This document shows, one piece after another, positions 29,750-56,500 of a stretch of DNA of 64,000 nt. Each line of letters opens with the position of its first letter. Within the stretch, counting starts at the first letter, position 1. Source of the DNA: Candidatus Cloacimonadales bacterium. Its GTDB lineage: Bacteria > Cloacimonadota > Cloacimonadia > Cloacimonadales > JAFGVF01. The notes under the pieces are model-generated. The model saw nothing but the letters and a program-made list of their open reading frames with translations, was not told where the DNA came from and searched no databases. The position numbers and the translations under genes were made by a program. Where the stretch lies: the NCBI GenBank assembly GCA_963677815.1, contig OY782499.1, positions 202,347 through 266,346 of the forward strand, given 5' to 3'.

Positions 29750-29927
29750 ATTTTCTCCCTTAATTAATGTGCGTTTTACACTCAAATTTGCATAAAACAC
29801 TGTTGTTTGTAATTTGCTAGTAAATCTGAGGGGGATTGTGTAGTGTGCGTGGTGATGCATTTTAATGGTGCAAGCCCCTACAGCCCTAACTCATTACAAT
29901 GTAATTATTTATAAAATACATGTTATT

Positions 29928-36134: not shown

Positions 36135-36538
36135 AATGTTTTTCTCCCATAACATTCTTAGTGTTATATCGTTTTTTTGGGTGTAACATATAATAGGAAG
36201 TGTTGAAAAATATCTACAAGTCGGACGCTTATGATTACTGTGGTGATGTAATCAAAAGCGTACCAGACATTGTCTTACGAATATTCTTAAAACTTCTCAA
36301 TGTGCTGTTACAAATTTAATTTTACTTACATAGGTGCTCTAGTTAATTGTTTGTTTGTTATGAGAATTACAGTGGTGAAGTAATTTCTCATCAACAATTT
36401 TCTTTGCACCATAGTCTCTTAATCTTCAGTTTCAATCAGTGTTTGGCTACTTTCTTATATAGTAGTGTGGTGGCATCTCATATTAGTGTAGCCCAACGTG
36501 ACCAAAGTAAAGATCTATTTCTCATTAATTCTAAGTAC

Positions 36539-37986: not shown

Positions 37987-40050
37987 TTACTTAATTTTTA
38001 CAATCTTGAAGTTCTTAGTTTGTGTAGGAGAAGTCATTCTTACAAAGTAGATACCATTAGCAACTTTCTTGTTGTTAAGGTCTCTGCCGTTGAATTCAAA
38101 GTTATGTTCACCAGCATTAAATGATTCTCTTCTTACAACTTGACCTAAAAGGTTGTAGATAGTTACAGTTGCAGTTTCGCCTTCTTTAACTCTTACAGTT
38201 GTAGAAGTAGATTCTGTGAAAGGTGAAGGACCGAAGTTACGGAAAGTAGTTTCTGTGATACCAGGAACTACAGGTTCATCTTCAACTGTTACAACGATAG
38301 GACCATGGAAAGAGTTTTCGTTACCTAATTCAGCAACTTCTAACCAGTAGTAGTAAGTTGTAGATTCAACTTCGCTATCTGTATAAGTGTAAGTTTGTGT
38401 TTGAGTTTGGTTAGCAGGAGCAACCATTGTAGGGTTGATTCTGATAGCTTGATCTTGGTTATCAGTTTCTGCTCTATATACATTATAACCTTGTAAGTTA
38501 CTTTCTGATTCAGTTACCCATTTTAATGTAACATATTCATTAGCATGTGCTTGAGCTGTGAATGATGAAAGTTCTACAGGAAGGCTAGGCTCTGTGATAA
38601 TAATATCAACAGGATCTTTAGCACCATCATAATTGATAGTAACAGTTACAACGCCACCAGGGAAAGCTGCATCATATTGATATACACCATCAATATATAG
38701 AGCACCCTGTAAGATGTTTGTTACAAATGTAAATACATATGTACCATTTACAGTTGGATTAACAGTTGCACCAAAGTTGAATGCACCAGCAAGTGGGAAA
38801 TTCTCGGAGAAATTTCCTGGTTCAGCAAATGGTGCTGGGACTGGAGGAGTAAATCCTGCAGGTGTTCCACCAGTAAATGTAACCTGTACTTGTACTTCTA
38901 CATTGTTAGGATTGTTATCGCCAGGAACTACCACAGGTGCTTCATCTTCATAGACAGCAGTAGTAGTGAAAGTACTAGTGTTCATTGTACCTTCGTTTGG
39001 ATATCTCTTAGGAGTAATTCTTTGAGCTTTTGAAGATTTCTTTCCAGCAGGAACGATATAAGGTTTTACACCCCATGTATATTCTGTGTTATAATCTAAC
39101 TCATAATCAAGAGTATATGTCATAACAGCTACATCTGCAACCATGTTCATATCTTCTCCAACAACACCAATATATAATTCATAACCAGTAGCAGCAGGAC
39201 CATCATAAGTCCATGTGAATTCTGGCATAAGAGCTACATCAGTTGCTTCATTTTCAGGAGTAGCATTAGTTGCCCAAGTTGGGTAAACTATTGGAGCTGC
39301 TTCAGTTGTAAATGACCATACAGGTGCATCACCTTCAGGATAAGTTTTGTCGCCACCTGGCATGTCATCCCATACAAATGGTTCAATTTTCCATTCATAT
39401 TCAGTTGAGTAAGCTAAATTAGGAACTTCAATTGAAAGTTCATTCCAATCACTTGCAGGGTTCATCCAATCAACAGCACCAACTGTACGATAATAGAAAT
39501 CATATAAGTCTGGTGTTGAACCTTCTGGATTTGCCCAGGTTAAAGTAACTGTAGTAGCTACACCAGTTGCATCATCTAATGGTGAAACAACAGTACACCA
39601 TTCTGGAGCTACGGGACCTGCAGGTCCGCCCCATGCGATTACGTCTGCATGAGTATGTTGGTCAGCACCTAATTTTGCTACATCTACAGGACCATATTCG
39701 TTACCATCTGCATCTATAAACCAAAATCTAGCGAGTGTACCAAAAACACCCCAGTTTGATAAAGGAGACATCTGAATATTCAATTTACCATCAATTTCAG
39801 AGTAAACAGTATTGTTTGTATTCTGATCCGCTTCTTCAGGCCAGTTCCAGTAAAGAACAGGGTTAGGAGCCCACATTTCTCCACCAAAACCTGCATTATA
39901 TTGGCAAGCTTTGAAACCAATAGTACCATTAGCGTGAAAATCTCCACCCTCTGTTGTAGTGTTAAAAATCAATAGATAAGGTGGTGCAATTTGAGCTAAT
40001 AATCCAAATACACTCAGTAATAATAAAGATACAATTAATAATTTTTTCAT
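37987..40050 (-). CDS. secreted Fn3-repeat protein P5 with T9SS type-A C-terminal sorting domain
   Basis: Signal peptide is MKKLLIVSLLLLSVFGLLAQ. There are three Fn3-like modules (..EYEWKIEPF, ..EYTWGVKPY). An LPVELSSFTA...YYYWLEV module is followed by the CTD ..TVTIYNLLGQVVRR...NGIYFVRMTS...KIVKIK. Confidence 0.85.
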   Translation of the reverse strand: MKKLLIVSLLLLSVFGLLAQIAPPYLLIFNTTTEGGDFHANGTIGFKACQYNAGFGGEMWAPNPVLYWNWPEEADQNTNNTVYSEIDGKLNIQMSPLSNWGVFGTLARFWFIDADGNEYGPVDVAKLGADQHTHADVIAWGGPAGPVAPEWCTVVSPLDDATGVATTVTLTWANPEGSTPDLYDFYYRTVGAVDWMNPASDWNELSIEVPNLAYSTEYEWKIEPFVWDDMPGGDKTYPEGDAPVWSFTTEAAPIVYPTWATNATPENEATDVALMPEFTWTYDGPAATGYELYIGVVGEDMNMVADVAVMTYTLDYELDYNTEYTWGVKPYIVPAGKKSSKAQRITPKRYPNEGTMNTSTFTTTAVYEDEAPVVVPGDNNPNNVEVQVQVTFTGGTPAGFTPPVPAPFAEPGNFSENFPLAGAFNFGATVNPTVNGTYVFTFVTNILQGALYIDGVYQYDAAFPGGVVTVTINYDGAKDPVDIIITEPSLPVELSSFTAQAHANEYVTLKWVTESESNLQGYNVYRAETDNQDQAIRINPTMVAPANQTQTQTYTYTDSEVESTTYYYWLEVAELGNENSFHGPIVVTVEDEPVVPGITETTFRNFGPSPFTESTSTTVRVKEGETATVTIYNLLGQVVRRESFNAGEHNFEFNGRDLNNKKVANGIYFVRMTSPTQTKNFKIVKIK

Positions 40051-40065: not shown

Positions 40066-40701
40066 TTATTTACGTGCGTTAGCGCGTTTACTTGTTATGT
40101 TTCTACCAGCTGGAGCATTCCAACCAGTATAAGCTTCGTTAGTGTAGATTAAGAATCCGTCGCCTATGTTGATATCAAAAGATGTTGCTGGTGAAGAAGT
40201 TGAATATTGAACCCAACCACCATTATTCCATGTAGTAATAGAAGTTACACCAGCACCTATTGAAGTAGCTAGTTCAGCTGCAGTAGTAATGTCACTTCTA
40301 TTTAATGGCAACATAATTTGATTAAAATCACTACCTGCAAAATCATAATTAGCTTGAGTTGGTAAAGTACCAGCACAGTAAAAATCAACATCGGTTGTGC
40401 CACCAAGATAAACTAAAAATGATTCTCCCTCTGAAATATCAAAGCTAGTAGCTGGTGATGATGTTGAGTATTGTGCCCAACCTCCATCCCATTTAGTTAT
40501 TGATGTAACATCTGGACTAATTGCAGCAGCTAATTCAGCTGTTGTAGTAATACCTGCATCCATTGGCAAGGCGATCATATTAAAATCGTTTGCATATAAT
40601 TCATATTTCACATATCCGACAACGTCACTGAAGTCTGATTCAACAGCGAACATAAAAGTTACGGACGCAATTAAAAGCGCTAAGACAAGCAACTTTTTCA
40701 T
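40066..40701 (-). CDS. small secreted protein with internal tandem duplication (unknown function), co-transcribed with P5
   Basis: Signal peptide is MKKLLVLALLIASVTFMFA and RBS is GGAGG. The two halves share ..TTAAELA..I...VTSIT.W..GGW.QYSTSSPATSFDI..G..FL.Y. A 15-nt gap separates it from the P5 start. Confidence 0.75.
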   Translation of the reverse strand: MKKLLVLALLIASVTFMFAVESDFSDVVGYVKYELYANDFNMIALPMDAGITTTAELAAAISPDVTSITKWDGGWAQYSTSSPATSFDISEGESFLVYLGGTTDVDFYCAGTLPTQANYDFAGSDFNQIMLPLNRSDITTAAELATSIGAGVTSITTWNNGGWVQYSTSSPATSFDINIGDGFLIYTNEAYTGWNAPAGRNITSKRANARK

Positions 40702-41312: not shown

Positions 41313-41606
41313 TTAGTCTAATGTCCTGTAGTATTCACGCATAAAATGAATCCAATTATTATTTGTTGTGCCTTCTGCAATTCTTCTCTGGTTTAATTCT
41401 TCTTTTTCCTGGGGAGTTAAGGCTTTATATGCCTTACTCAACATAGTTTTGATTTCGCCAAAGTGTTGATTATTTTCCACAAGCCTTGGATTTGATTTTT
41501 TTCTTAAACGATATTTAGCTTCCTTCTTATATTTTACCAGAGTTAAACCATTTTTCTTTACCTTTGTTTTAAAACCCCAAGGTATTTTTAATCCGATTTT
41601 AATCAT
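41313..41606 (-). CDS. small basic hypothetical protein (97 aa)
   Basis: A strong RBS (AGGAGG, 4-nt spacing) precedes the ATG. The N-terminal half is Lys/Arg-rich. I recognise no family. Confidence 0.55.
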   Translation of the reverse strand: MIKIGLKIPWGFKTKVKKNGLTLVKYKKEAKYRLRKKSNPRLVENNQHFGEIKTMLSKAYKALTPQEKEELNQRRIAEGTTNNNWIHFMREYYRTLD

Positions 41607-41786: not shown

Positions 41787-41819
41787 CTACAGGGAGGATG
41801 GATGACTACTTCTGCTTAT

Positions 41820-42001
41820 AACTGGGAAGGGGGATTCCCAGTTATTTAAGAGAAGAGCGGGCTGGAATCCCGCATTCCCAGTTAGCATAGCAAAAGCCCC
41901 GCTTTCGCAGGGCTTTTTAATTTATTTGAGTGTGCCGGCAAGGATGCCGGCGCTCCCAGTTATTTAAGAGAAGAGCGGGCTGGAATCCCGCATTCCCAGT
42001 T
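41820..42001. repeat. REP cluster abutting the P4 stop codon
   Basis: It contains a collapsed palindrome AACTGGGAAGGGGGATTCCCAGTT and three reverse REPs, including the stem variant GCCGGCAAGGATGCCGGC. The last REP ends in ..CCCAGTT, and its final TT plus the next A form the P4 TAA stop on the minus strand. Confidence 0.95.
41893..41916 (-). terminator. probable terminator of P4 (after two REPs)
   Basis: GC hairpin AAAGCCCCGC-tttc-GCAGGGCTTT. The T-run is short on the minus strand (TTTTG) and longer on the plus strand. Confidence 0.5.
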
Positions 42002-45000
42002 ATTTAGCAGGAGTGAAGGCATCAGTAGATGCTTCAATCTTGAAGAATTTCATATTATCAGCTCCGTCATTAGTATATGAGTTAGTACCTACAGTTTGGA
42101 TTAATTCAAATCCACTATCAGGGTTCATAGAACCGTATACTTTATAGGAGTTAGCATTGGTAACTTCTTCCCAAGTAATTACGATACCTGTAGCTTCTTT
42201 AACAATAGAAGTAATTACAGGTGTAGCAAGTTCAGTCACACCACCACCAGCTATGATATCATCTGCATCACGTGGGTTAAGACCATATTGGTTATAAGAA
42301 TAATCCACGACACCTGTGATAGAAGTAAATGTGTCGTTTACTGAAGCTGCAGGAATAAGTTCAAAGATACCATTATCAATTTGAGCATCACCTGAGCCAT
42401 CAGTAACAAACCATTCATCATTACTATTAGCAGCGGTTGTAACAGTTAAGTTTTCAATCTTCACTAAAACACCTTCATAGGCTTCGTTAGAAGCTAAATC
42501 TGCAGTAGTAACTACAAGCGGTTCAGGAAGAGTGTTTCCTTGAGAGACAACTTGGAAGTCTGTTACAGTCTTTAGTTCAGTCCAACCATAGTATTCATCT
42601 ACAGTAGCACGGAATGAAACAATGTCACCTAGACTAGGGCTGTTTGTAGAATCATAAACATAAATACCATTCCAAGCACCACCTTGAGGAGCCGAGATAA
42701 AGTATCTTGAACCTGCATAATTAGTAGCAGTTACGATACCTTCTACAAGAACATCTTGTCCGTCATAAGGAGAAGGATAAGTTCCATCGCCAGCTTCAGT
42801 AGTATATTGAATATCATAGATAGGTGTAGGAAGAACTTCATTAGCAATACCTGTTAAGTCAATAATTACATCATCGAAACCATCAGCAGAATGAGTAATC
42901 TGACCATAAACAGTTCCAGCATTAGTAGCATTGAATTTAACGTTGATAGTAACTTCTTCTTCTTGTAATTCGAAGAAGAAATCAGAACCCCAAGCACCAT
43001 CTGGGTCTTGGATTTGGAAATCGCCAGTTACTTCTACAAGTCCTAAATCAACGCCTTGCATATAAAGGACGTAAGATTGACTAGCAGATTCTACACCAAC
43101 TTCTGTTTCAAAGGTCATAGCAGTTTTTGATATGTTAAGACCGTCTTCATAACCAGTCACTTCTTGGATTTCAGAAGCGAAGCGAGAAGTTAGTTGAGAT
43201 GTACCTTGATATTCAATAGCCAGACCAGTCACATTAAGGTTATTAGCAGAAATGTCTGAACCAATATAATCAGCTTCAGAGAAATTAGTTCTGAAGACAA
43301 GGTTATTAGTTCCATCTGTTAAGGTGTAGTTTTGGCCAGAAGCGAAAGTACCAGTTTCAACAAATGTAACACCTTGGACTGTTACCACTTGTGATTCATA
43401 AGCGTTGAAGTTAGTATTTAAGTCTGCAATAGTAACTACAATAGGAGTAACAGTATTTCCTGTTGAAGTAGCAGGGTCGCTATTTACAGAAGGTACAAAT
43501 TGAAGAGTTCCGTTATATTCAGTAAGAGAACCTTCAAGATTAGTGATACCATCATAGAGGTTATAAGTAGTAGTTATAACTCCAGAGTTATCATCAATTA
43601 GAATACCTGCAGTAGCATCTTGGATATATTTTTGATTACGAGAAGTTCTTTGGTAAGTTAAGATAGCTTCCCCAGTTAATCTATAGATAGTACCATCAGT
43701 GAGCCCTGCTCTTAAGTCAGCAATAGTAGCAACTTCAGTAACAGCTGAGAAAGTGAAGTCTGCAGAAACTACAGGACTATTTAGATAACCTTCTTTCATA
43801 GCAATAGCTTGGATAGTAGCATCAGCACTTAAGCTAAATGGAGCTGAATAAAGTGTTGAAGCATCAGTAGGTGTATCACCATTAGTAGTGTAATAGATTG
43901 AGGCACCAGCAGTTTCACAGGTAAGTGTAACATCTATTGGATTTTCGAAATTTCCACCATTAGGAGAGATTACAGGACTAGCAACTACTTCCATTGGTTC
44001 AGTGTGAGAACCAAGATATGAGAAGGTATCACTTGGATAAACAATCCACTGTGAATCTTCAGGAGAAGTTCCAGCAGAAGCTGTCCAATCAGTAGTACCC
44101 TGAGTAACAGTCATCTTTCTAACAAGAGTATGGTTAGCAGTAGCTCCAGTATCTCCAGCTACTTCCCAAGTAGAACCAGGGTCAACAGTTGGAGTACCAA
44201 AGACATCAATAAGGATACCATTATAGAAGAGACCAACTGCATCATCACCATTAAAATAAGTAACGTTACTTGTTTCATCTGCTATGGCAAGAATTGAAGC
44301 ATCGGCTGAAGCATTAGCTATAACATAAACATCACCGGATGCAAGTGTACCTTGCATATCAGAAGTATTACCCCAGTCACCACCATTAGAAGCTAATCTT
44401 ACAGTATAAGGAGTTAAATCAACATCCGCTCCAGTACCATTATAGATTTCAACAGCTTTATTATTAGAAGAACCTTCAATATATTCAGAAATAATCATAC
44501 CTGTAGGGACAATAATCTCTTCGATAGTGATTACAGATTCAGCAATAGAGCTATCAAGCCAGTCAGTTTTAACAGCCATAGCTTTAACAGTAGTAGTAGC
44601 ATCAACAGTGAAAGGTGTAGTATATTCACTTGATCCAGTAGTTGGGTCATTACCATCTATAGTATAATAGATAGTTGCACCATCGGTTGCACAAGTGATA
44701 GTAACTTCTTGGCTTTCATAGTAAGTTCCTGTTGCTGGAGCGATTTCAGGAGTAGCAACTGTTGAAGGACCAGCTAATTCTGTAAAATCAGCAAGGTTTC
44801 TAGCAACAATTTGAGGACTTCCATTATATTCAGCAACATAAGCGACCACATCTAAACCACTAGTAAAGATAGCCTGTCCAATATAATCAGCTTCAGAGAA
44901 AGAAGTTCTGAAGGTTAAGTTATCAGTACCATCAGTGAGTGTATAGTTTGTATTTGCTGCAAAAGTACCTGCTGAAGAGAAGTTTACACTTTCTAGTTTA

Positions 45001-48000
45001 ACTAATCTTGATTCATAAGTATCAATTGCAGAAGTAATATCAGTAATTGATACTACTAAAGGAGTGACAGTATTTCCTGTTGAAGTAGCAGAACCTGGGT
45101 CTGCAGTTGGAACAAATTGAAGGATTCCATTATATTCATTAAGAGTACCTTCAATATTTGTAATACCGTCATATTGATTATAAGTTGTTGTGATAAGACC
45201 AGAGTTATCATCGATTAAGATACCAGCAGTGGCATCTTGGATATATTTTTGATTACGAGAATCTCTTTGATAAGTTAAGATAGCTTGACCAGTTAATCTA
45301 TAAATAGTACCATCAGTAGCACCAGCTCTTAAGCTTGCGATATCAGCAACCTCAGTAGCAGTAATTGAAGTGATGGTATATTCAGCAGTAGCAATAGCTG
45401 AATCATCATAATCAACTAAAGTAGCAAAGGCTTTCACAGTAGTATCTTCGGTGATAGTTAAATCACTAGAATATACAAGTGAGCCTGTAGTTGGATCACT
45501 ACCATCTAAGGTATAATAGATAGTAGCACCATCAGTTGCACAAGTAATAGTAACTACAACTTGGTCATTATAAGAACCAGCAGCAGGGGTAAATTCAGGA
45601 GTTGCAACTGTAGGAGTTGGTTCGACTCCATAGCTTCCTAGATAAGCAAATGTATCTTGTGGGTAGATATTCCATTGAGAAGAAGCTTCATCTGTACCAG
45701 CTGAAAGAGCCCAGTCAGTAGTTCCTTCAGTAACTGTTAACTTTCTAACAAGAGTATAATCTGCAGTAGTACCAGCACCACCAGCTACATCCCAAGATGA
45801 ACCTGGATCAGAACCGAAAACACCAATCATATCAATTGCGATATCATTATAACATAGAGCTACGGTATCATCACCGTTAAAGTTACAAACACCACTTGTT
45901 GCATCTGCAAGAGCGAGAACAGCTGCCTCAGCACCAGAGTTTGCAATAACGAAAACTGCTTCAGCTGCTAGTGTACCATTGAAATCGTAAGTAGTACCCC
46001 AATCTCCACCATTGAAAGCAGTTTTTATAGTATAAGGTGTTAAATCGACTTCAGCACCAGTTCCGTTATAAATTTCGATAACTTTGTTGCTACCAGAACC
46101 TTCTATATATTCAGAAATAATCATACCAACTGGCATTTCATTTAGATCAACAATAGTATAATCAGCACTTGCAATAGCAGAATCATCATAATCAACTAAG
46201 CTAGCAAAAGCTTTGACTGTTGCATCAGCAGTTAAAGTAAATGGAGCTGAATAAACGTCAGAAGCTGTTGTTGGGTCATTTCCATCTATAGTATAATAGA
46301 TAGTAGCACCTTCTGTAGCACAAGTGATAGTAACTTCAACTTGGTTATCATAGCTACCAGCTACAGGACTTATTTCAGGTGTTGCAACTATTTGAGCTGG
46401 ATCAACACCATGACTTCCTAAATAGGTAAAGGTATCTTGAGGATAAACATTCCATTGCGAAGAAGTTTCATCTGTACCAGCTGAAACAGCCCAGTCAGTT
46501 GTACCTTGAGTAACTTCAACTTTTCTTACAAGAGTGTAATTTACAGTTGTACCAACTCCACCAGCTACATCCCATGAAGAACCTGGGTCCACTCCAGGAA
46601 CACCAATTACATCAATAAGAGTAGTATTGTAGAAGAGACCAATTGCATCATCACCGTTGAAGTAACAAACATTACTTGTAGCATCTGTTACGGCAAGAAT
46701 AGCTGCAACTGAACCTGAGTTTGAGATAACAAAGACATCCCCAGCAGTAAGTGTACCAGTCATATCATAATTATTACCCCAATCTCCACCATTAGAGCCT
46801 AGTTTAACACTATAAGGTGTTAAATCAACATCTGCACCTGTACCATTGTAGATTTCAATTGTTTTATTATTTGAACCACCTTCAATGTATTCAGAGATAA
46901 TCATACCTGTTGGTATATCACCTGCTTCTGGACTTACTGTATAAGAAGCTTCTTGGCTGGTAGATGTTGCATTATCATCATCAGTTGCTTCAATTACATA
47001 ATATACAGTAGTTTCTGCTAATTGAGCTGGAATATCAGCTGTATAAGAAGCACGGGCAGGAGTCATTGCAGTAGTTGTAGTATAGACGCCTGTTTCAGTT
47101 CCCCATTTTAAATTGATAGTAGCAATAGTGCCATCATTATCAACTGCATTAGCTGTAACTGTTACAGCATCAGTAGGATAAATTGTAAGAGGAGCATGAG
47201 TTACATCTGATATTACAGGAAGTTGGTTAGCAGTTACATCAAGAATAACATCATCTGCATCTCTTGGGCTAATACCAAATGAACCATATTTGTAGTCAAC
47301 AATACCTGTAATTGAAGAATAAACCTGTCCAACACTTGGAGCTGGGTCTGGAATATAGCCATATTCATCATCAATTTGAGCATTTCCAGAACCATCTGTT
47401 ACATACCATTCATTATAGGTAGAAGGTTCTTGAGTAACTGATACATTTTCAACAGTAACTAATACGCCTTCATAAGCTTCTGTAGATGCCTGAGCAGTAG
47501 TAATTACAGCAGGAGTTACAGAGTTTCCTTGTGAAAGAGTTTGGAAACCATTGATATTACTTAGTTCTGTTAAAGTATTATATTCAACAACTTGTCCATT
47601 AAAAGTAACTTCATCACCTATTGTAGGATTAGCTGTGTTGTTATAAACAAGGATTCCATTCCAAGCGCCACCTGCAGGAGCAGAGATATTGAAACCTGAA
47701 CTATTAACTGCAGTTACGATACCTGTAACATTAACAGTCTGTCCTTGATAAGCAGAAGCGTCTGAAGTTGTAGGATCAGCTACATACTGGATATCATAAA
47801 TTGAAACAGTAGGAATGATATTGATAACATAAGACTCTGAAGCCATTTGAGAATCATTCCAGCCTGCTTTAACAGCAATAGCCTTGATTGTCATATCAGC
47901 AGCAACTTCGATAGCTCCACTATAAAGAGTAGAAGCAGAAGTTGGAGTATCTCCGTTAGTAGTATAATAGATGTCTGCATCTGCAGTAGTTGTTGCTAAA

Positions 48001-50372
48001 GTAACATTTTGAACTGCATCAAAGGTTCCACCAGCTGGATTCATAGTAGGAGTAGCACAAGTAAATACAGGTTCTCCACCATAAATTGCATTAACCCATT
48101 CAGGATAATCTACGAATGGATTTCTGTTACCTTGATAATCTTCAATTTCATTATTACGAGTTATTTCAGCAGCATCAACAGGATCTTGACCATGCCATTC
48201 TAAAAGAATAGGAAGCATATTTACATTGATTGGTCCATTATTAGGAACAGGAGGGGCAAGAGGAAGGTCATAACGTACATTCATATAAAGTAATGCACGA
48301 GCTAAATCACCCTTGTGTTGATCTGTTGGTTCAAAGACAGTAACAAATTCATCATTATCACCACGATATGAAACATATCCAGTTGCATAAGAATATGAAT
48401 ATTCAACTGAATTTACAACATCAAATGATAAATTACCACGTGAAGAGTTTACACCTGAATCAGTTGGGAAAAGATGATGTACATCAGCTTTAGCTCTTAA
48501 TTCTTCATTTTGAGTATCATAATCTTCAATCCAGCTTTGAGCATAAGAGTGTTCACAATTAATGTCAGTTGGTGCAGAAGTATCACCATAAGAATGAGAA
48601 ACTTCTAAACCAGTATAAACACATGTTACTGTGTTATTTATATTATCTATATTGCTATACATGGCAGCACGAGCACCATCATAGCTTGTATTTGTGTTTG
48701 TTGAAATAAGTGTTTTTAATTGACTCTTTAAAGCAGCACCTTCTGTAGCAGTAATACCACTATAGTAAGAAGAACCACCTGAAGTAGTTACAGTAATATA
48801 AGCTGACTTATATTCTGTTCCATCACTTGTTCCTGAATCCATAACATAAAGTTTCACAGGATAAGTACCTACAGCGTAATAAGTGAAGCTTGGATTAGCA
48901 GCATCTGAATCTTCATTATTATCACCATCGAAATCCCAGCTATATAAATAAGGACTTGTCCCACCAGTAACTAAATTAGTAAAGTTAACTGTAAGAGGAA
49001 CTTGACCAGTAAGCACATCAGCTTCGAAATCAACAGTTAGAATTTCAGGAGAAGTTCCACCAGCACCCATAACTGAGAAATCATCATAATATATTACTCC
49101 GCCACCTGAGTTATCATTATAAGTTCTAACTTCAAAATAAAAGTTATCTGCAGTAGCAGGAGCAGTAAGAGTATGAGAAACTTGTTGCCAATCTGCACTG
49201 TCTGTTGAATATCCACTTGGTCTTAATTCTAAAGCATTATCAGATAATGTGCTTGTACCTTCACGCCAATAAGAATAAATTCTTCCTTTTGCATTAGCAT
49301 CATTATCTAAGAACCAATAAGAGATAGTATAAGTTTCTCCACCAACAATACCTTCAACATATTGACCTAAGTCTTTGGTGCCTGCAGTTTGCTTAGCAGA
49401 ATAAGAACCAGAATGAACAATAGTTGCTTCTTGCTCAATACTTTCTTTCTTATCCCAACCTGTTGGGCTTGTAGCAGTATCCCAAGCTTCAAGACTTCCA
49501 TTAGTCATTAATTCATCACCACTTCCACTTGTTTCTTCAGTAACAGTGATGTAATTAATTTTTTCTTCAATATCTGTGCCTAAAACTGCATCAGTAACTG
49601 TTAATTTTACAGAATAAGTTCCTGCTGAAGTATAATCATAAGCAGGATTTTCTTCAGTGGAATCAACACTTCCGTTGTTATCAAAATCCCATGCATAACC
49701 ATAAGGTGAAGTACCACCAGTTACTGCAGGAGTGAAGTTAACAGTGAGAGGGGCAAGACCGGTTACATAATCAGCTGAGAAATCAGCTGAGAGAGCTGTA
49801 GGGGTTGTGCCACCAGAATAATCTGTTACAGAAAAATCATCTATACTCAAATGAGCATTTTGGGCATCACTTAGAACTCTAATATAGATTTCGGTAGCAG
49901 AATCATTGATGTCATAAGAATAATCTACATAATTTTGATTAGCACTGGCCCCTAAAGTATGAGTATCTAAATCTATGAAATTTTCATTATCATAAGATTT
50001 TTGTAAAACAAATACATTAGTATCAGAACCATTAATATAAGCATATTTGAAACTAACTGTTTCAATTGTGTTAAGAGCAGGTGTAGTTATATGAGCTCCG
50101 GCAGAATCATCATTAATAACAAAGCCATAAGACCCTGCAATTGTATTTCCATAAGAGAAATTACCAGCTTGAACTTTTGTCCAAACTCTTCCGCTTATAG
50201 TAACAGAAGCATCTCCATAAGAAGTACTTGGATTGCTTTCAAAATCTTCAGTCCATGTATCAGCCATCAGCGAACCGATGCTTAACATCATCATTAGTAC
50301 GATAAAAATATTCAGATATCTTTTCACATATCCTCCAAATTTTTTGGTTTGTGTTAAATAATTTTCTTCCAT
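42000..50372 (-). CDS. giant secreted nuclease P4: endonuclease I domain + 3 lamin-tail domains + PKD, CBM-like, OB-like and Fn3-associated repeats; class-B C-terminal domain
   Basis: Endonuclease-I motifs lie at aa ~535-765 (NCEHSYAQSW, ADVHHLFPTDSGVNSSRGN, HKGDLARALLYM, QGNRNPFVDYPEW). Three LTD-like modules are present (GMIISEYIEG..NK.IEIYNGTGA.VDL..Y......NGGDWG...FNGDD). Two PKD modules are present (PLTVNFT...GGTSPY.Y.WDFD). The true start may be GTG at 50327 (GGAGGA 4 nt upstream, then KRYLNIFIVLMMMLSIGSLMA) rather than ATG 50372, which has no RBS. Confidence 0.85.
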   Translation of the reverse strand: MEENYLTQTKKFGGYVKRYLNIFIVLMMMLSIGSLMADTWTEDFESNPSTSYGDASVTISGRVWTKVQAGNFSYGNTIAGSYGFVINDDSAGAHITTPALNTIETVSFKYAYINGSDTNVFVLQKSYDNENFIDLDTHTLGASANQNYVDYSYDINDSATEIYIRVLSDAQNAHLSIDDFSVTDYSGGTTPTALSADFSADYVTGLAPLTVNFTPAVTGGTSPYGYAWDFDNNGSVDSTEENPAYDYTSAGTYSVKLTVTDAVLGTDIEEKINYITVTEETSGSGDELMTNGSLEAWDTATSPTGWDKKESIEQEATIVHSGSYSAKQTAGTKDLGQYVEGIVGGETYTISYWFLDNDANAKGRIYSYWREGTSTLSDNALELRPSGYSTDSADWQQVSHTLTAPATADNFYFEVRTYNDNSGGGVIYYDDFSVMGAGGTSPEILTVDFEADVLTGQVPLTVNFTNLVTGGTSPYLYSWDFDGDNNEDSDAANPSFTYYAVGTYPVKLYVMDSGTSDGTEYKSAYITVTTSGGSSYYSGITATEGAALKSQLKTLISTNTNTSYDGARAAMYSNIDNINNTVTCVYTGLEVSHSYGDTSAPTDINCEHSYAQSWIEDYDTQNEELRAKADVHHLFPTDSGVNSSRGNLSFDVVNSVEYSYSYATGYVSYRGDNDEFVTVFEPTDQHKGDLARALLYMNVRYDLPLAPPVPNNGPINVNMLPILLEWHGQDPVDAAEITRNNEIEDYQGNRNPFVDYPEWVNAIYGGEPVFTCATPTMNPAGGTFDAVQNVTLATTTADADIYYTTNGDTPTSASTLYSGAIEVAADMTIKAIAVKAGWNDSQMASESYVINIIPTVSIYDIQYVADPTTSDASAYQGQTVNVTGIVTAVNSSGFNISAPAGGAWNGILVYNNTANPTIGDEVTFNGQVVEYNTLTELSNINGFQTLSQGNSVTPAVITTAQASTEAYEGVLVTVENVSVTQEPSTYNEWYVTDGSGNAQIDDEYGYIPDPAPSVGQVYSSITGIVDYKYGSFGISPRDADDVILDVTANQLPVISDVTHAPLTIYPTDAVTVTANAVDNDGTIATINLKWGTETGVYTTTTAMTPARASYTADIPAQLAETTVYYVIEATDDDNATSTSQEASYTVSPEAGDIPTGMIISEYIEGGSNNKTIEIYNGTGADVDLTPYSVKLGSNGGDWGNNYDMTGTLTAGDVFVISNSGSVAAILAVTDATSNVCYFNGDDAIGLFYNTTLIDVIGVPGVDPGSSWDVAGGVGTTVNYTLVRKVEVTQGTTDWAVSAGTDETSSQWNVYPQDTFTYLGSHGVDPAQIVATPEISPVAGSYDNQVEVTITCATEGATIYYTIDGNDPTTASDVYSAPFTLTADATVKAFASLVDYDDSAIASADYTIVDLNEMPVGMIISEYIEGSGSNKVIEIYNGTGAEVDLTPYTIKTAFNGGDWGTTYDFNGTLAAEAVFVIANSGAEAAVLALADATSGVCNFNGDDTVALCYNDIAIDMIGVFGSDPGSSWDVAGGAGTTADYTLVRKLTVTEGTTDWALSAGTDEASSQWNIYPQDTFAYLGSYGVEPTPTVATPEFTPAAGSYNDQVVVTITCATDGATIYYTLDGSDPTTGSLVYSSDLTITEDTTVKAFATLVDYDDSAIATAEYTITSITATEVADIASLRAGATDGTIYRLTGQAILTYQRDSRNQKYIQDATAGILIDDNSGLITTTYNQYDGITNIEGTLNEYNGILQFVPTADPGSATSTGNTVTPLVVSITDITSAIDTYESRLVKLESVNFSSAGTFAANTNYTLTDGTDNLTFRTSFSEADYIGQAIFTSGLDVVAYVAEYNGSPQIVARNLADFTELAGPSTVATPEIAPATGTYYESQEVTITCATDGATIYYTIDGNDPTTGSSEYTTPFTVDATTTVKAMAVKTDWLDSSIAESVITIEEIIVPTGMIISEYIEGSSNNKAVEIYNGTGADVDLTPYTVRLASNGGDWGNTSDMQGTLASGDVYVIANASADASILAIADETSNVTYFNGDDAVGLFYNGILIDVFGTPTVDPGSTWEVAGDTGATANHTLVRKMTVTQGTTDWTASAGTSPEDSQWIVYPSDTFSYLGSHTEPMEVVASPVISPNGGNFENPIDVTLTCETAGASIYYTTNGDTPTDASTLYSAPFSLSADATIQAIAMKEGYLNSPVVSADFTFSAVTEVATIADLRAGLTDGTIYRLTGEAILTYQRTSRNQKYIQDATAGILIDDNSGVITTTYNLYDGITNLEGSLTEYNGTLQFVPSVNSDPATSTGNTVTPIVVTIADLNTNFNAYESQVVTVQGVTFVETGTFASGQNYTLTDGTNNLVFRTNFSEADYIGSDISANNLNVTGLAIEYQGTSQLTSRFASEIQEVTGYEDGLNISKTAMTFETEVGVESASQSYVLYMQGVDLGLVEVTGDFQIQDPDGAWGSDFFFELQEEEVTINVKFNATNAGTVYGQITHSADGFDDVIIDLTGIANEVLPTPIYDIQYTTEAGDGTYPSPYDGQDVLVEGIVTATNYAGSRYFISAPQGGAWNGIYVYDSTNSPSLGDIVSFRATVDEYYGWTELKTVTDFQVVSQGNTLPEPLVVTTADLASNEAYEGVLVKIENLTVTTAANSNDEWFVTDGSGDAQIDNGIFELIPAASVNDTFTSITGVVDYSYNQYGLNPRDADDIIAGGGVTELATPVITSIVKEATGIVITWEEVTNANSYKVYGSMNPDSGFELIQTVGTNSYTNDGADNMKFFKIEASTDAFTPAK

Positions 50373-50603: not shown

Positions 50604-50654
50604 GTAATAATCAGTAAGTTTTAATTAACAATTGTTTGTGAGAGGCTTGTATTG

Positions 50655-50890: not shown

Positions 50891-50895
50891 TCAGA

Positions 50896-53526: not shown

Positions 53527-56500
53527 ATGAATAAAAAACTTGTTTTTTTGTTATTGTTTTTAGTAGCAACAATGAGTATTTTTTCATTAGACTACACAAT
53601 TGAACTAACAGACACTTATGGAGATGGTTGGAATGGTGGTTCTGTCACAGTTAATGTAAACGGTTCACCAGTACTTGAAGACTTAACAATAGGAGGTGGT
53701 TCCAGTGCTTCTTATTCTTTTACTGTAGTCAGTAATGACCTCATTGAGACCAGCTATACAGCTGGTAGTTGGTCTACTGAAAATGAATATCAAATTTTAA
53801 ATGAAAATAATGAAGTAGTTGCTGAATCAGGGCAAGGAGGAGCTACACCTGGAAATGTAAGTTACACTGTACCTCAAGTTATTGAAGGAACTCCTGATGC
53901 GCCTACTTTAACTTCACCAGTTGATGGAAGCAACAATATAGCAGTTGCAAGTAATTTGGAATGGACAATTGGTGAGAACACTAACACAGTAACATTATAT
54001 CTTGCTGATAATGCAGAATTTACTAATGCTATAATTATGGAGGAAAATGCAACATCCCCATACAGTTATAGTGGACTTGAAACAGGTACCTTATATTATT
54101 GGAAAGTAGTTGCTATTAACACTACAAATAGTCTTGAGACAGCTACTCAGGCTTCTTTCACAACGACATTATTTAGTGGAGACCAAGTAGTTTTTTCAGG
54201 TGATTATGTTGTAAATCAGGGGTTACCTATTGAACCATATTATGGCTATTCTGTTTCTCAATCTATCTACCCTGCAGATGAATTAAATATTGTGGATCAT
54301 ACTATTACAGAAATAACTTATCTTTTTAATCAGAACAGTGTGTTTACTGATAACATTATCATTTATATGGCTCATACTGAACTAACTACATTTGATAATT
54401 CTACAAGTTGGATCGATGAAGGATTGATAGAAGTATATAATGGAACATTAACAACTTCAACTGAAGACCCAAAAATTACAATTGAACTAGACTCACCTTT
54501 TGTATATAATAATGTAGATAACCTTTTAGTATGTGTTTTTGAAACCACTAGTGGTTATCATTCAGGTTCAGATGAGTTCTTAACATTCTCAGTTGCTGAA
54601 AATAGATCAATCCACTATAAAAGTGATTCAACTAATCCTAGCATAGTTGATTGGACTTCTTTAAGTGGAACTGCAAAAGCATATCTACCAGTTACAGCTT
54701 TTACTTTAGGTGAAATCCCTCAAAATCCAATCGCAACTCTTTCTGATACAGAATTAGACTTTGGTACTGTAGTTTTATATGAAACAGCTAATGATATAGT
54801 ATCTATTACTAATACAGGAGCAGGTACACTAAATATCACAGATATTACTATTACTGGTACAAATTCTGAAGACTTTGATTTTGACACAGACACAGAAGGT
54901 CCTTGGGCTCTTACAACTGGACAAGAGTTAGTAATACAAGTAGATTTCACACCACAAGCTGATGGTCCTAGATCTGCTAGTTTAGAAATAACAGATGACT
55001 TAGCTAGACAAGTTCATGAAATTGCTCTTTCAGGTACTGGTAATGATACTAATATCTATGAAATCACTATTCCTTATTCTCAAACATTTGAAAATGAGGA
55101 AGAAATCATGGGTTGGACAAGTGTTCTTAATTCAACTTCTTCCTCTGCAACTGCTGGAAGATATAATGGTAGTGCTAATAATGGTTCTTACTCTTATAGA
55201 GTCTATAATTCTAATGATACAAATACTACAGCTGAATTAATTTCGCCACTTGTTATTCCTGATATTAATGCTTACAGAATAAGATTCTGGGCAAAAAAAT
55301 CAAGTACAAACAACACTCAACCTCTTGTTGTAGGAAAATATAATCAAGATATGAATTCTTTTACTGCTATTAGTAGTGTTGAATTAACAACAACTTATCA
55401 AGAGTTTACTATTAATATGGTAAATTCTGCAAAAGCAAATGAAAGATTTGCCTTCCAGTTTTCATTCACTGGCACATATCAATCTATCTACATTGATGAT
55501 ATTATTTTAGAAGAAATCCCTCAAAATCCAATCGCAACTCTTTCTGACACAGAATTAGACTTTGGAACAGTTGATGTAGGTGAAACAGGGAGTGATTTAG
55601 TATCTATTTCGAACTCAGGGGCAGGAACTCTGAATATCACCAGTATTGATTTTTCAGGATCAGAAGCTGGAGATTTTGCTTACCAAACAGATACTGAAGG
55701 TCCTTGGGCTCTTACAACTGGACAAGAGCTCGTAATCCAAGTAGATTTCACACCTTCAGCTGATGGCCCTAGAAGTGGAAGTTTAGATATAACGGATGAC
55801 TTAGGAAGTAAGAGTAGACAGGTTAGTTCTGTAACTCTTACAGGTAACGGTTTTGTAATGCCTGTTGGAAATCATCACAATGACCCAATAATATTAACCT
55901 TAGCAGACGAAATTATCGAAAATGGTTCTACTACAATTTATGATACTTATTATGATTTTTGTTCATCTCAAACAGTTGTCTATAAGTTATCCCTTCCTAC
56001 AGAAAAACTAATGTCAGTATCTTTGGAAGGTACAGCTTGGGATACCAAACTCTATATATTTAACTCTTATGATCAAATCGATCAAGCAACATCAGCAAAC
56101 GATGCTTGGTATTATAATGATGATGAAAGTAATGCCGGACAAGGAGGTGCTAAATCTAAATCAAGAGATAGAGCTACTTGGTCAGAAATGCTTGAAACTC
56201 TTTCTCCAGCTGGTGATTATTACATCATTGTGACAGGTTATAACACTAACAACGGTGATTATACCATGACTATTAATACATCAGACTTACCAGTTCCTGG
56301 ACCTGCAACATCTCCTTCTCCTGCAAATGATGCTATTGATCAAGCTATTGATTTAACCCTTTCCTGGACTAACCCAGATTATACAGATTCAATTGATTTA
56401 TATTTTGGAACTCCAGGCAGCAAGTCATTAGCAAAAGTTCTTGATAATGTCCCAGCCGTTGAAGAGCATGAAGTTACAGGTTTAGCTCCAAGTACAGAAT

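What the first reader, a model, noticed from the sequence alone, without database searches (positions are those of the whole stretch)
42000..50372. A 2790-aa secreted nuclease: endonuclease I core combined with three lamin-tail domains, two OB-like modules, PKD, CBM-like and Fn3-associated repeats
Residues ~535-765 (nt ~48078-48770) carry the endonuclease I (EndA/Vvn family) motifs: NCEHSYAQSW, ADVHHLFPTDSGVNSSRGN, HKGDLARALLYM and QGNRNPFVDYPEW.

Three ~165-aa modules match the lamin-tail-domain pattern known from ExeM/NucH-type extracellular nucleases. They lie at aa ~1153-1320, 1413-1580 and 1955-2122 (nt ~46413-46916, 45633-46136 and 44007-44510) and read GMIISEYIEG..NK.IEIYNGTGA.VDL..Y...NGGDWG...FNGDD..GL.

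Two modules of the form SIYDIQY...GQ.V.V.GIVTA...GGAWNGI.VY...SPRDADD (aa ~856-1043 and 2516-2705) look like the OB-like domains that precede such nucleases. Two ~195-aa repeats are also present (ADIASLRAG.TDGTIYRLTG.AILTYQR.SRNQKYIQDATAGILIDD).

Endonuclease I enzymes are normally ~25-kDa periplasmic proteins. Embedding one in a ~300-kDa surface protein with multiple putative DNA-binding modules suggests a cell-surface machine for capturing and processively degrading extracellular DNA, whether for nutrient scavenging, biofilm eDNA, or competition.
Basis: partly seen in the sequence, partly recalled or inferred. Interest (0 to 1): 0.7.

Follow-up and report, generated by a model that had tools for sequence, protein, structure and literature searches.

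The report
Giant modular secreted nuclease of Cloacimonadales
This is a real 293-kDa secreted protein of an uncultured Cloacimonadales bacterium that joins an intact endonuclease-I-type nuclease to many copies of the accessory modules found in known extracellular DNases, making it an oversized variant of a known enzyme kind rather than a new one.

Summary
ORF 42000..50372 (-) is intact. It carries Endonuclease_1 (E=4e-40), three lamin-tail domains, five CHB_HEX_C_1/Fn3_assoc Ig spacers, two PKD domains, two DUF5689 modules and two further OB-like modules.

- **Catalysis:** alignment with genuine E. coli EndA keeps the catalytic Glu-His, the Mg-binding Asn and the C-terminal motifs.
- **OB-like modules:** an AlphaFold model (pLDDT 96) is a tandem OB fold. 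Its best PDB matches are dsDNA-binding HIN domains. These modules are homologous to DUF5689 (hhalign 97%) and to the OB region of ExeM/NucH.
- **Literature:** DUF5689 is the family of DdbD and of a Riemerella transformation protein, both tied to DNA uptake.
- **Origin:** the nearest relatives of the catalytic domain are 344-aa Cloacimonadota nucleases with a T9SS tail. About a dozen orthologs (1750-2790 aa) shuffle modules around a constant nuclease.

Caveats:
- The protein is extremely acidic (81 K+R against 363 D+E), which argues against ordinary electrostatic DNA binding.
- No T9SS tail or membrane anchor is detectable.
- Nothing supports processivity.
- The lamin-tail domain's role is unproven.
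- Endonuclease_1 fused to LTD or Fn3 domains was already noted in 2017.
- The start codon is probably GTG at 50327, giving 2775 aa.

Verdict: a new variant of a known kind, of moderate interest.

The parts
42000..50327 (-). Coding sequence of the giant nuclease from the probable GTG start (2775 aa). The maximal ORF reaches the ATG at 50372 (2790 aa).
   Evidence: ORF. GTG at 50327-50325 lies 3 nt after GGAGGA (50336-50331). Orthologs start MKRYLN at this position.
50262..50327 (-). Sec-type signal peptide (aa 16-37, (M)KRYLNIFIVLMMMLSIGSLMA|DT), with no lipobox Cys
   Evidence: Sequence. It is the only hydrophobic stretch in the protein and is conserved in orthologs. The cleavage site is inferred.
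49788..50261 (-). N-terminal jelly-roll domain (aa 38-195), adhesin/MAM/CBM-like
   Evidence: No Pfam or NCBIfam hit. The AF2 model has pLDDT 88. Foldseek finds gingipain K2 cleaved-adhesin (TM 0.61-0.64), reelin, MAM and CBM4/29/32. The same domain heads other Cloacimonadota giant proteins.
49527..49790 (-). PKD domain 1 (aa 195-282)
   Evidence: PKD_4/PKD hits. It is 54% identical to PKD2.
49038..49526 (-). CBM_4_9-like jelly-roll (aa 283-445), weakly supported
   Evidence: CBM_4_9 E=2e-4, 22.2 bits against a cut-off of 25.9, covering model positions 6-131 of 136. P0009 and P0010 have an LTD at this position instead.
48783..49037 (-). PKD domain 2 (aa 446-530)
48069..48770 (-). Endonuclease_1 (His-Me finger / beta-beta-alpha-metal) catalytic domain, aa 535-768. 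Predicted key residues are E607-H608, D631, H634, N643 and R646.
   Evidence: Pfam E=4.3e-40. A profile search finds PDB Vvn/EndoI at E=8e-17. The alignment with E. coli EndA keeps EH, DxHxLxP, VNxxRGN, KGxxAR and QGNxNP. It is the best-conserved module across orthologs.
47817..48068 (-). CHB_HEX_C_1/Fn3_assoc Ig-like spacer 1 (aa 769-852)
47223..47816 (-). Tandem-OB module 1 (aa 853-1050), ExeM/NucH-type OB region related to DUF5689
   Evidence: ExeM_NucH_DNase model positions 1-118, E=1.7e-13. AF2 pLDDT 96.3. Foldseek finds HIN-200 dsDNA-binding tandem OB folds and RPA/CST/AspRS OB folds. hhalign to DUF5689 gives 96.9%.
46923..47222 (-). Unassigned Ig-like module (aa 1051-1150)
   Evidence: Only weak Ig-like Pfam hits. 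It is conserved in orthologs.
46407..46916 (-). Lamin-tail-domain module 1 (aa 1153-1322)
   Evidence: Pfam LTD. exonuc_ExeM-GG model positions 10-177. It is 72% identical to LTD2 and LTD3.
46143..46400 (-). CHB_HEX_C_1 spacer 2 (aa 1325-1410)
45627..46136 (-). Lamin-tail-domain module 2 (aa 1413-1582)
45357..45620 (-). CHB_HEX_C_1 spacer 3 (aa 1585-1672)
44769..45356 (-). DUF5689 module a (aa 1673-1868), DdbD-family tandem-OB type
   Evidence: Pfam DUF5689 E=2.8e-29, two stretches. hhalign to the OB-like family gives 96.9%, E=1.4e-10.
44517..44762 (-). CHB_HEX_C_1 spacer 4 (aa 1871-1952)
44001..44510 (-). Lamin-tail-domain module 3 (aa 1955-2124)
   Evidence: Best LTD stretch at 1959-2060. 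ExeM-GG hit at 1943-2126.
43737..43994 (-). CHB_HEX_C_1 spacer 5 (aa 2127-2212)
43158..43730 (-). DUF5689 module b (aa 2215-2405)
   Evidence: It is part of a ~540-aa segmental duplication (aa 1325-1868 against 1871-2405, 59% identical).
42834..43157 (-). ASH/CFAP65-like Ig module (aa 2406-2513)
   Evidence: Weak Ig_CFAP65 hit. It is conserved in orthologs.
42249..42827 (-). Tandem-OB module 2 (aa 2516-2708)
   Evidence: ExeM_NucH_DNase model positions 1-119 match aa 2543-2649. It is 54% identical to module 1.
42003..42239 (-). C-terminal Fn3-like domain (aa 2712-2790) ending MKFFKIEASTDAFTPAK; a candidate localisation domain of unknown mechanism
   Evidence: The same domain ends the 1981-aa and 1649-aa ORFs of this window (E=2e-16 and 2e-10) and all long orthologs. 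It is not related to the T9SS CTD (hhalign 0.15%) and is a generic Fn3 in a database-wide search.
41891..41917 (-). Terminator-like hairpin (AGCCCTGC-GAAA-GCGGGGCT followed by TTTTG) about 85-110 nt downstream of the stop
   Evidence: Read directly from the sequence.

Best explanation
The gene encodes a Sec-exported, roughly 293-kDa modular extracellular nuclease of a Candidatus Cloacimonadales bacterium.

**Shown**
- The catalytic unit is an Endonuclease_1 (EndA/Vvn-type His-Me finger) domain with its catalytic Glu-His and Mg-binding Asn intact.
- An adhesin/CBM-like head (jelly-roll, PKD, jelly-roll, PKD) lies N-terminal to it.
- A roughly 2000-residue stalk lies C-terminal to it. In the stalk, Ig-like spacers separate three ExeM-type lamin-tail domains and four tandem-OB modules: two of the ExeM/NucH OB type and two DUF5689 (DdbD-type).

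**Inferred**
- The OB/DUF5689 modules hold extracellular nucleic acid, or hold the enzyme in a DNA-rich matrix.
- The Mg2+-dependent nuclease then cuts the nucleic acid endonucleolytically into oligonucleotides, for nutrient (P, N, C) scavenging or eDNA-matrix remodelling.
- The protein stays cell-associated through its C-terminal Fn3-like domain, which replaces the T9SS tail of its shorter paralogs.

It arose by adding the accessory toolkit of EEP-type DNases (ExeM/Xds/NucH), in multiple copies, to a catalytic domain most similar to the ordinary 344-aa T9SS-secreted nuclease of the phylum.
For: - **Profile hits:** Endonuclease_1 E=4e-40, LTD x3, DUF5689 x2, CHB_HEX_C_1 x5, PKD x2.
- **Catalytic residues:** the EndA alignment keeps the catalytic and metal-binding residues, and these columns are invariant across a family alignment with sequences as low as about 33% identical to the window's domain. 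A profile search finds PDB Vvn/EndoI at E=8e-17.
- **Selection:** the nuclease is the constant and best-conserved module among module-shuffled orthologs.
- **Accessory toolkit:** the LTD and OB regions match ExeM/NucH models, but no EEP domain does.
- **Fold of the OB-like module:** the AF2 model has pLDDT 96, and its top PDB hits are dsDNA-bound HIN domains and ssDNA-binding OB folds.
- **DUF5689 link:** DUF5689 modules are homologous to the OB-like modules. DUF5689 is the family of DdbD, the predicted DNA-binding partner of a TonB-dependent transporter in a locus required for DNA depletion; its model also resembles the p202 HIN domain. It is also the family of a Riemerella protein essential for natural transformation.
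- **Precedent:** the OB region is essential for ExeM and Xds activity.
- **Export:** there is a signal peptide and no other hydrophobic segment.
- **Origin:** the closest catalytic relatives are 344-aa Cloacimonadota proteins made of Endonuclease_1 plus a T9SS CTD.
Against: - The mature chain has 81 K+R against 363 D+E (pI about 4 or lower). The OB-like modules have 2-5 K+R in about 195 aa, and the nuclease domain has a net charge of -21, whereas EndA is basic. Classical electrostatic DNA binding is therefore unlikely unless divalent cations bridge the contact.
- K/R depletion is shared by all secreted giant proteins in the window, so it is an exoproteome trait rather than a nuclease adaptation.
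- No T9SS CTD, transmembrane anchor or lipobox is present, so attachment to the cell is not shown.
- The Vvn Arg99 loop and the four disulfides of EndA/Vvn are absent.
- No nucleoside, nucleotide or TonB-dependent transporter lies nearby.
- DNA binding by DUF5689 or the LTD has not been shown experimentally in the papers read.
- The family includes an RNase (Bsn), so the substrate could be RNA.
Confidence: 0.65

Rival explanations
1. Matrix-anchored nuclease. The nuclease is active, but the OB/DUF5689, LTD and jelly-roll modules bind polysaccharide, cell-envelope or floc-matrix components rather than nucleic acid. They would place the enzyme in a biofilm or granule instead of capturing DNA.
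For: - All modules are extremely acidic and K/R-poor, as are the 120 stand-alone homologs of the OB-like module (median 3 K+R).
- OB folds also bind oligosaccharides.
- The N-terminal domain resembles cleaved adhesins and CBM4/29/32, and there is a weak CBM_4_9 hit.
- An LTD and the CBM-like module are interchangeable at one position in orthologs.
- The LTD was dispensable for DNase activity in Xds.
Against: - The OB-like module is homologous to the OB region that ExeM and Xds need for DNase activity.
- It is also homologous to DUF5689 proteins tied genetically to DNA uptake and utilisation.
- Its best structural matches are nucleic-acid-binding OB folds.
Confidence: 0.2
2. Extracellular RNase or sugar-non-specific nuclease whose main substrate is RNA, like the Endonuclease_1 family member Bsn of Bacillus subtilis.
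For: - Endonuclease_1 includes the Mg2+-activated RNase Bsn.
- The window's domain is far from the EndA equivalog (41.8 bits against 372).
- It is 38% identical to a Halobacillus 'endonuclease' of unknown specificity.
Against: - The accessory modules come from DNases (ExeM/Xds/NucH) and from DNA-uptake proteins.
- This reading does not exclude DNA cleavage.
Confidence: 0.1
3. Essentially a giant adhesin or surface-layer protein in which the nuclease domain is vestigial, or alternatively a nuclease toxin aimed at competitors.
For: - The gene sits among other giant K/R-poor surface proteins that share the same N-terminal and C-terminal domains.
- P0016 is a paralog with the same binding modules but no nuclease.
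Against: - The catalytic motifs are invariant, and the nuclease is the most conserved module in orthologs.
- No immunity-like gene lies next to it.
- Endonuclease_1 is not among the toxin groups in the His-Me classification text read.
Confidence: 0.05

Closest known systems
Endonuclease I family (E. coli EndA, Vibrio vulnificus Vvn, V. cholerae Dns; Pfam PF04231, His-Me finger group 9)
   Same: - The catalytic domain matches the whole Pfam model.
- It keeps the EH, DxHxLxP, VNxxRGN, KGxxAR and QGNxNP motifs shared with EndA.
- It is secreted through a signal peptide.
   Different: - EndA and Vvn are basic periplasmic proteins of roughly 210-235 aa (EndA is 235 aa) with eight Cys and an Arg-bearing omega-loop insertion.
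- Here the domain is acidic, has 2 Cys and lacks that insertion.
- It scores only 42 bits against the EndA equivalog cut-off of 372.
- It makes up about 8% of a 2775-aa chain.
ExeM (Shewanella oneidensis) / Xds (Vibrio cholerae) / NucH extracellular nucleases
   Same: It carries the same accessory toolkit: an LTD and a YhcR-like OB region homologous to NCBIfam ExeM models. These are extracellular, surface-associated DNases acting on eDNA and biofilm.
   Different: - Their catalytic domain is EEP; here none is present and Endonuclease_1 takes that role.
- They have one LTD and one OB region in about 870 aa, against three LTDs and four OB-type modules here.
- ExeM's GlyGly-CTERM anchor is absent.
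[quoted passage not shown]
   Same: - Two modules are above-threshold DUF5689, and two more are homologous to it.
- The modelled fold resembles HIN/p202 dsDNA-binding domains, as reported for DdbD.
   Different: - DdbD is a separate protein predicted to pair with a TonB-dependent transporter. Here the modules are fused to a nuclease, and no such transporter is in the window.
- DNA binding is predicted, not shown, in both cases.
344-aa Cloacimonadota 'endonuclease' proteins (Endonuclease_1 plus T9SS type A sorting domain)
   Same: They are the closest relatives of the catalytic domain (44-54% identity over its full length) and come from the same phylum.
   Different: They have a single catalytic domain with a Por_Secre_tail/FlgD_ig C-terminus and near-neutral charge. 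They carry no LTD, OB or Ig array.
Multi-domain Endonuclease_1 proteins with fn3/LTD/Big_2 domains (Jablonska et al. 2017) and the 1049-aa LTD-bearing nuclease of Ca. Izemoplasma DNA-degradation loci (Wasmund et al. 2021)
   Same: They share the general architecture of a secreted nuclease with Ig-like and LTD modules. Other Endonuclease_1 + LTD + T9SS proteins of 2356-3097 aa exist (P0076, P0094, P0106).
   Different: - The combination with DUF5689/tandem-OB modules and this particular module order is confined to about a dozen Cloacimonadales proteins.
- This combination was not found described in the papers searched.

Membership tests
Endonuclease I (Pfam PF04231 Endonuclease_1) | Profile match above the curated threshold over the whole domain | tested here: met
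   138.4 bits against 25, model positions 4-235 of 235, aa 547-758.
Endonuclease I (Pfam PF04231 Endonuclease_1) | [quoted passage not shown] 2003) | tested here: met
   E607-H608 align with the EH of genuine E. coli EndA and are invariant in the set of 22 aligned sequences.
Endonuclease I (Pfam PF04231 Endonuclease_1) | Mg2+-binding Asn in the VNxxR motif (Vvn Asn127) | tested here: met
   N643 aligns with the EVNGDR Asn of Vvn (PDB 1OUO/1OUP) and of EndA.
Endonuclease I (Pfam PF04231 Endonuclease_1) | Phosphate-stabilising Arg in the omega-loop (Vvn Arg99) | tested here: inconclusive
   The EndA/Vvn insertion that carries it is a gap in this protein, and no invariant Arg replaces it upstream of D631.
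Endonuclease I (Pfam PF04231 Endonuclease_1) | Eight Cys forming four disulfides (the EndA/Vvn subgroup) | tested here: not met
   Only C584 and C606 lie in the domain. The organism is an anaerobe-lineage MAG.
Endonuclease I (Pfam PF04231 Endonuclease_1) | Orthology to EndA (NCBIfam PRK15137 equivalog) | tested here: not met
   41.8 bits against a cut-off of 372. It is a family member but not an EndA ortholog.
Endonuclease I (Pfam PF04231 Endonuclease_1) | Mg2+-dependent nuclease activity | not testable with these tools
   Needs an enzyme assay.
ExeM/Xds/NucH extracellular nucleases | N-terminal lamin-tail domain | tested here: met
   exonuc_ExeM-GG model positions 10-177 match three times; Pfam LTD x3.
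ExeM/Xds/NucH extracellular nucleases | YhcR-like OB region | tested here: met
   ExeM_NucH_DNase model positions 1-119 match both OB-like modules. The stand-alone homolog P0243 matches ExeM-GG positions 196-341.
ExeM/Xds/NucH extracellular nucleases | EEP (endonuclease/exonuclease/phosphatase) catalytic domain | tested here: not met
   No EEP Pfam hit, and the ExeM models match only in their N-terminal parts. It is therefore not a member of this family.
ExeM/Xds/NucH extracellular nucleases | GlyGly-CTERM / C-terminal membrane anchor (ExeM-GG type) | tested here: not met
   No hydrophobic segment outside the signal peptide.
DUF5689 (DdbD / RA0C_RS04920 family) | Pfam PF18942 match above threshold | tested here: met
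   103 bits against 28.6, two stretches. The two OB-like modules are sub-threshold (21-22 bits) but homologous by hhalign at 96.9%.
DUF5689 (DdbD / RA0C_RS04920 family) | HIN/p202-like tandem-OB fold | tested here: met
   The model of the related OB-like module has pLDDT 96. Its top Foldseek hits are p204/p202/IFI16/MNDA HIN domains, but TM-scores are only 0.35-0.40. The DUF5689 modules themselves were not modelled.
DUF5689 (DdbD / RA0C_RS04920 family) | Encoded next to a DdbC-type TonB-dependent outer-membrane transporter | tested here: not met
   No TonB-dependent receptor among the window's ORFs or in the ortholog locus L001.
DUF5689 (DdbD / RA0C_RS04920 family) | Binds DNA | not testable with these tools
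   This is predicted only in the literature read. The acidity of the modules argues for caution.
T9SS cargo proteins | C-terminal type A sorting domain (TIGR04183 / PF18962) | tested here: not met
   No hit in the whole protein or in its last 86 aa. hhalign of the C-terminal domain against T9SS CTDs gives 0.15%. The neighbouring ORFs 37987..40050 and 53527..58401 and the paralogs P0013-P0015 do carry one.

The most novel reading that the evidence does not exclude
The protein is a single-polypeptide DNA-foraging appendage: a Cloacimonadota counterpart of the multi-gene Ddb DNA-utilisation loci of Bacteroidota.

- Four DdbD-like (HIN-fold) receptors and three LTDs are strung on Ig spacers and capture eDNA for a distal His-Me nuclease.
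- Every module is hyper-acidic, so binding would have to be bridged by divalent cations or driven by base stacking. Neither mode has been described for this fold.
- The unannotated stand-alone OB-like proteins with a T9SS tail, widespread in Cloacimonadota and Flavobacteriales, would then be a new family of surface DNA receptors.
Probability: 0.3. Interest if true: 0.6.

Novelty: new variant of a known kind. Interest (0 to 1): 0.4.

Why it matters
Extracellular DNA is a major phosphorus, nitrogen and carbon pool and a structural polymer of biofilms and digester granules. Cloacimonadota are abundant, uncultured members of anaerobic digesters and sediments.

If the model holds, this protein shows two things:
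- The accessory toolkit of EEP-type DNases (LTD plus OB) is portable to a different catalytic fold.
- The DUF5689 domain, only recently tied to DNA uptake in Bacteroidota, is used outside that phylum, fused directly to a nuclease.

It also offers a test case for a biophysical question: how, or whether, extremely acidic OB-fold modules bind a polyanion. The protein and its orthologs are already in public databases, largely unannotated, so the gain is in annotation and hypothesis rather than discovery of a new system.

Tried and rejected
- **C-terminal domain as a dedicated sorting domain.** A search of the last 78 aa against 1.84 billion representatives returned generic multi-Fn3 proteins with matches anywhere in the chain. 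This was uninformative.
- **C-terminal domain as a divergent T9SS CTD.** Rejected: hhalign gave 0.15%.
- **Aligning the N-terminal half of the nuclease domain to Vvn by sequence.** No hit was found. The question was settled instead by fetching genuine E. coli endA and aligning it through intermediate homologs.
- **The Vvn structure paper** is not held. Vvn residue numbers are therefore from memory, checked against the chain indices printed.
- **Exact look-up of the window's protein on contigs** failed. An ortholog locus was used for synteny instead.
- **Rfam scan of 40600-53600** for a riboswitch or leader found nothing near threshold.
- **The downstream repeats at 41020-42002** first looked CRISPR-like. 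Their irregular spacing (79, 67, 649, 118) and composite structure point to REP/MITE-like elements instead.
- **Literature search** for a Cloacimonadota extracellular nuclease found nothing specific.

Full report
**1. The observation**

The ORF 42000..50372 on the minus strand is real and uninterrupted at 2790 codons.

Pfam confirms the architecture:
- Endonuclease_1 at aa 547-758, covering model positions 4-235 of 235, E=4.3e-40.
- Three LTD stretches.
- Five CHB_HEX_C_1/Fn3_assoc stretches.
- Two DUF5689 stretches.
- Two PKD stretches.

Pairwise identities are 64-72% for the LTDs, 54% for the OB-like modules and 64% for DUF5689. A ~540-aa block (CHB-LTD-CHB-DUF5689) is duplicated at 59% identity.

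The 'CBM-like' label is the weakest part. It rests on a CBM_4_9 hit at E=2e-4, below the gathering score.

The start codon is probably not the ATG at 50372. The GTG at 50327 follows a GGAGGA, and orthologs begin MKRYLN there. The mature chain from D38 is 2753 aa and 293 kDa.

**2. Source and context**

A scan of species-representative genomes places the closest relatives in Candidatus Cloacimonadales / Cloacimonadota MAGs. The best hit is CAXXJV010000001.1, 93% identical in the nuclease domain.

The identical protein is already in NCBI/ENA, unannotated, on a 2.88-Mb contig.

The window is ordinary chromosome. It carries an Mrp/Mbh-like complex, murB, metK, guaA and an IS200-like transposase, plus five other secreted proteins, four of them 687-1981 aa. 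Two of these carry T9SS type A sorting domains.

A DJ-1/PfpI gene and a TPR gene lie upstream in the same orientation. They are also upstream of a 51%-identical ortholog. No transporter or nucleotide-catabolic gene is adjacent.

**3. The catalytic domain**

Sequence and profile searches of the PDB find only the endonuclease I structures Vvn, V. cholerae and V. salmonicida EndoI. The profile search reaches E=8e-17, but the alignment covers only the C-terminal two-thirds.

To test the catalytic His, I fetched genuine endA from E. coli K-12 and aligned it with the window's domain through 20 intermediate homologs.

These features align and are invariant or nearly so:
- The EH pair (E607-H608).
- D631-x-x-H634-x-L-x-P.
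- VN643-x-x-R646-G-N.
- KG-x-x-AR.
- W...DPV...E..R and QGN-x-NP.

These features differ from EndA/Vvn:
- The omega-loop insertion that carries Vvn Arg99 is absent.
- There are 2 Cys rather than 8.
- The domain is acidic, with net charge -21, whereas mature EndA is +9.
- It scores 42 bits against the EndA equivalog cut-off of 372.

It is therefore a divergent member of the family, not an EndA ortholog. Across orthologs the nuclease is the most conserved module (62-94% identity), and it is the constant element while other modules come and go. This argues that catalysis is under selection.

**4. The accessory modules**

NCBIfam matches only the N-terminal parts of the ExeM/NucH models: the LTD (positions 10-177) and the OB region (positions 1-119). 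It never matches the EEP nuclease part.

An AlphaFold model of OB-like module 1, built on a 40-sequence alignment, has pLDDT 96.3 and shows two beta-barrels. Foldseek against the PDB ranks two groups first:
- The dsDNA-bound HIN-200 domains of p204, p202, IFI16 and MNDA.
- Single OB folds of RPA, CST and Asp/Lys-tRNA synthetases.

TM-scores are modest (0.35-0.40 for HIN; about 2.6 A over 80 residues for single OB folds). This supports a tandem OB fold of the nucleic-acid type, not homology to HIN.

Profile-profile comparison shows the DUF5689 modules are homologous to the OB-like modules (96.9%, E=1.4e-10 over 145 columns). The protein therefore carries four modules of this kind.

The N-terminal domain has no family hit. 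Its model (pLDDT 88) is a jelly-roll resembling gingipain cleaved-adhesin domains, reelin repeats, MAM and CBM4/29/32.

**5. What the literature adds**

- Jablonska et al. 2017 already state that Endonuclease_1 occurs with fn3, LTD and Big_2 domains.
- In ExeM and Xds the OB region is essential for DNase activity. The LTD is dispensable in Xds, for activity and for localisation, and only partly needed in ExeM.
- A 2025 preprint shows that DdbD, a DUF5689 protein, is the predicted substrate-binding partner of a TonB-dependent transporter in a B. thetaiotaomicron locus required for DNA depletion. Its AlphaFold model resembles the p202 HIN domain. This is the same structural neighbour I obtained independently.
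- A Riemerella DUF5689 protein is essential for natural transformation.
- Wasmund et al. 2021 describe a 1049-aa protein with nuclease, nucleic-acid-binding and LTD domains in Izemoplasma DNA-degradation loci.

**6. Family and evolution**

About a dozen proteins (P0002-P0012 and P0121, 1752-2777 aa) share the core order PKD, Endonuclease_1, CHB spacer, accessory modules, tandem-OB, C-terminal Fn3. They differ in three ways:
- They carry two to four LTDs.
- DUF5689 modules are present or absent.
- In two of them an LTD replaces the CBM-like module.

A paralogous group (P0013-P0015, ~1.7 kaa) ends in a T9SS sorting domain. One genome, OY782831.1, holds both a 2777-aa form and a 1636-aa form.

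The nearest relatives of the catalytic domain are 344-aa Cloacimonadota proteins consisting of Endonuclease_1 plus a T9SS CTD (44-54% identity). In species representatives, most Cloacimonadota copies are about 350 aa.

Unrelated giants of 2356-3097 aa carrying Endonuclease_1, LTD and a T9SS tail also exist (P0076, P0094, P0106). A Bacteroidales frame of at least 1970 aa contains the domain.

The giant form is thus a lineage-specific elaboration of a common secreted nuclease.

**7. Counter-evidence**

The mature chain has 81 K+R and 363 D+E. The OB-like modules have 2-5 K+R per ~195 aa, and the LTDs have 4. The 120 stand-alone homologs of the OB-like module are equally acidic, with a median of 3 K+R.

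This K/R depletion (about 3%) is shared by the other giant secreted proteins of the window (3.0-4.8%). Cytoplasmic proteins have 10-17%. It is a property of the exoproteome, but it still makes ordinary electrostatic binding of DNA implausible. If these modules bind DNA, they must do so through bridging cations or base stacking. Otherwise they bind something else.

Localisation is also open:
- No T9SS CTD, transmembrane anchor or lipobox is present.
- The C-terminal Fn3-like domain is unrelated to T9SS CTDs.
- That domain is a generic Fn3 at database scale.
- It nevertheless ends three giant proteins of this window and all long orthologs, with a conserved MKFF-x-[IV]-x-AST...AK terminus.

**8. 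Verdict**

Processivity, surface anchoring and DNA binding by the LTDs are not supported by evidence.

It is a new variant of a known kind. Its distinguishing features are Endonuclease_1 in place of EEP, multiplied ExeM-type LTD/OB and DdbD-type DUF5689 modules, and a size of 2775 aa. Interest is moderate.

Noticed in passing
window 41020-42002 (intergenic, immediately downstream of the ORF; the first copy overlaps the stop codon): There are five copies of a 40-70-nt composite REP/MITE-like repeat (AACTGGGAATGCGGGATTCCAGCCCGCTCTTCTCTTAAATAACTGGGAAT) with GC-rich hairpins and irregular spacing of 79, 67, 649 and 118 nt. They flank a 97-aa K/R-rich ORF (41313..41606, minus strand) that has its own AGGAGG. 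It is not a CRISPR array, and there is no Rfam match.
   Followed up: partly
window 42003-42239; 30231-30467 (end of ORF 30210..36155); 24959-25153 (end of ORF 24911..29860): Three giant secreted proteins end in the same ~79-aa Fn3-like domain, with a conserved terminus MKF[FY]-x-[IV]-x-[AG]S...AK and sometimes a short basic tail. Paralogs and neighbouring proteins carry a T9SS type A CTD at that position instead. It may be an undescribed C-terminal localisation domain; no homology to T9SS CTDs was found.
   Followed up: partly
proteins P0243-P0362; homologous to window aa 853-1050 and 2516-2708: The tandem-OB module occurs as stand-alone secreted proteins of 230-330 aa (signal peptide, module, T9SS CTD) throughout Cloacimonadota and in Flavobacteriales and other Bacteroidota. 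The module has no Pfam assignment in these proteins. They are candidate surface nucleic-acid receptors and are strongly acidic.
   Followed up: partly
window ORFs 24911..29860, 30210..36155, 37987..40050, 40066..40701, 42000..50372, 53527..58401: All secreted proteins in the window are depleted in Lys and Arg (3.0-4.8%) and rich in Asp and Glu (10-13.5%). Cytoplasmic proteins have 10-17% K+R. This is a compartment-wide compositional bias of unknown cause.
   Followed up: partly
window 50325-50336: The annotated-style ATG start at 50372 is probably wrong. The GTG at 50327 follows GGAGGA and matches the MKRYLN start of the orthologs.
   Followed up: yes
protein P0016 (2126 aa, JGI 'predicted extracellular nuclease'): This paralog has the same N-terminal domain, LTD, CHB, DUF5689 and tandem-OB modules plus a T9SS CTD, but no Endonuclease_1 domain. 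It is a possible binding-only counterpart.
   Followed up: no
window 50896-53228 and locus L001 7468-9849: A DJ-1/PfpI gene and a TPR-protein gene lie directly upstream of the nuclease gene, in the same orientation, both here and next to a 51%-identical ortholog. The functional link is unknown.
   Followed up: no
orthologs P0002-P0012 compared with the window protein: Identity is mosaic. In P0002 the N-terminal domain is 57% identical and the C-terminal domain 54%, while its other modules range from 72% to 96% (most about 90%). P0006 has a 91%-identical C-terminal domain but modules of 57-70% elsewhere. This suggests recombination or module exchange between genes.
   Followed up: no
window 40066..40701 (minus strand): A 211-aa secreted protein with no family hit contains an internal duplication of about 70 aa (…TTAELA…VTSIT.W..GGW.QYSTSSPATSFDI…).
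   Followed up: no
window 37079..37639 (minus strand): An IS200-like Y1 transposase ORF (Y1_Tnp, E=6.5e-10) sits between the giant surface-protein genes.
   Followed up: no
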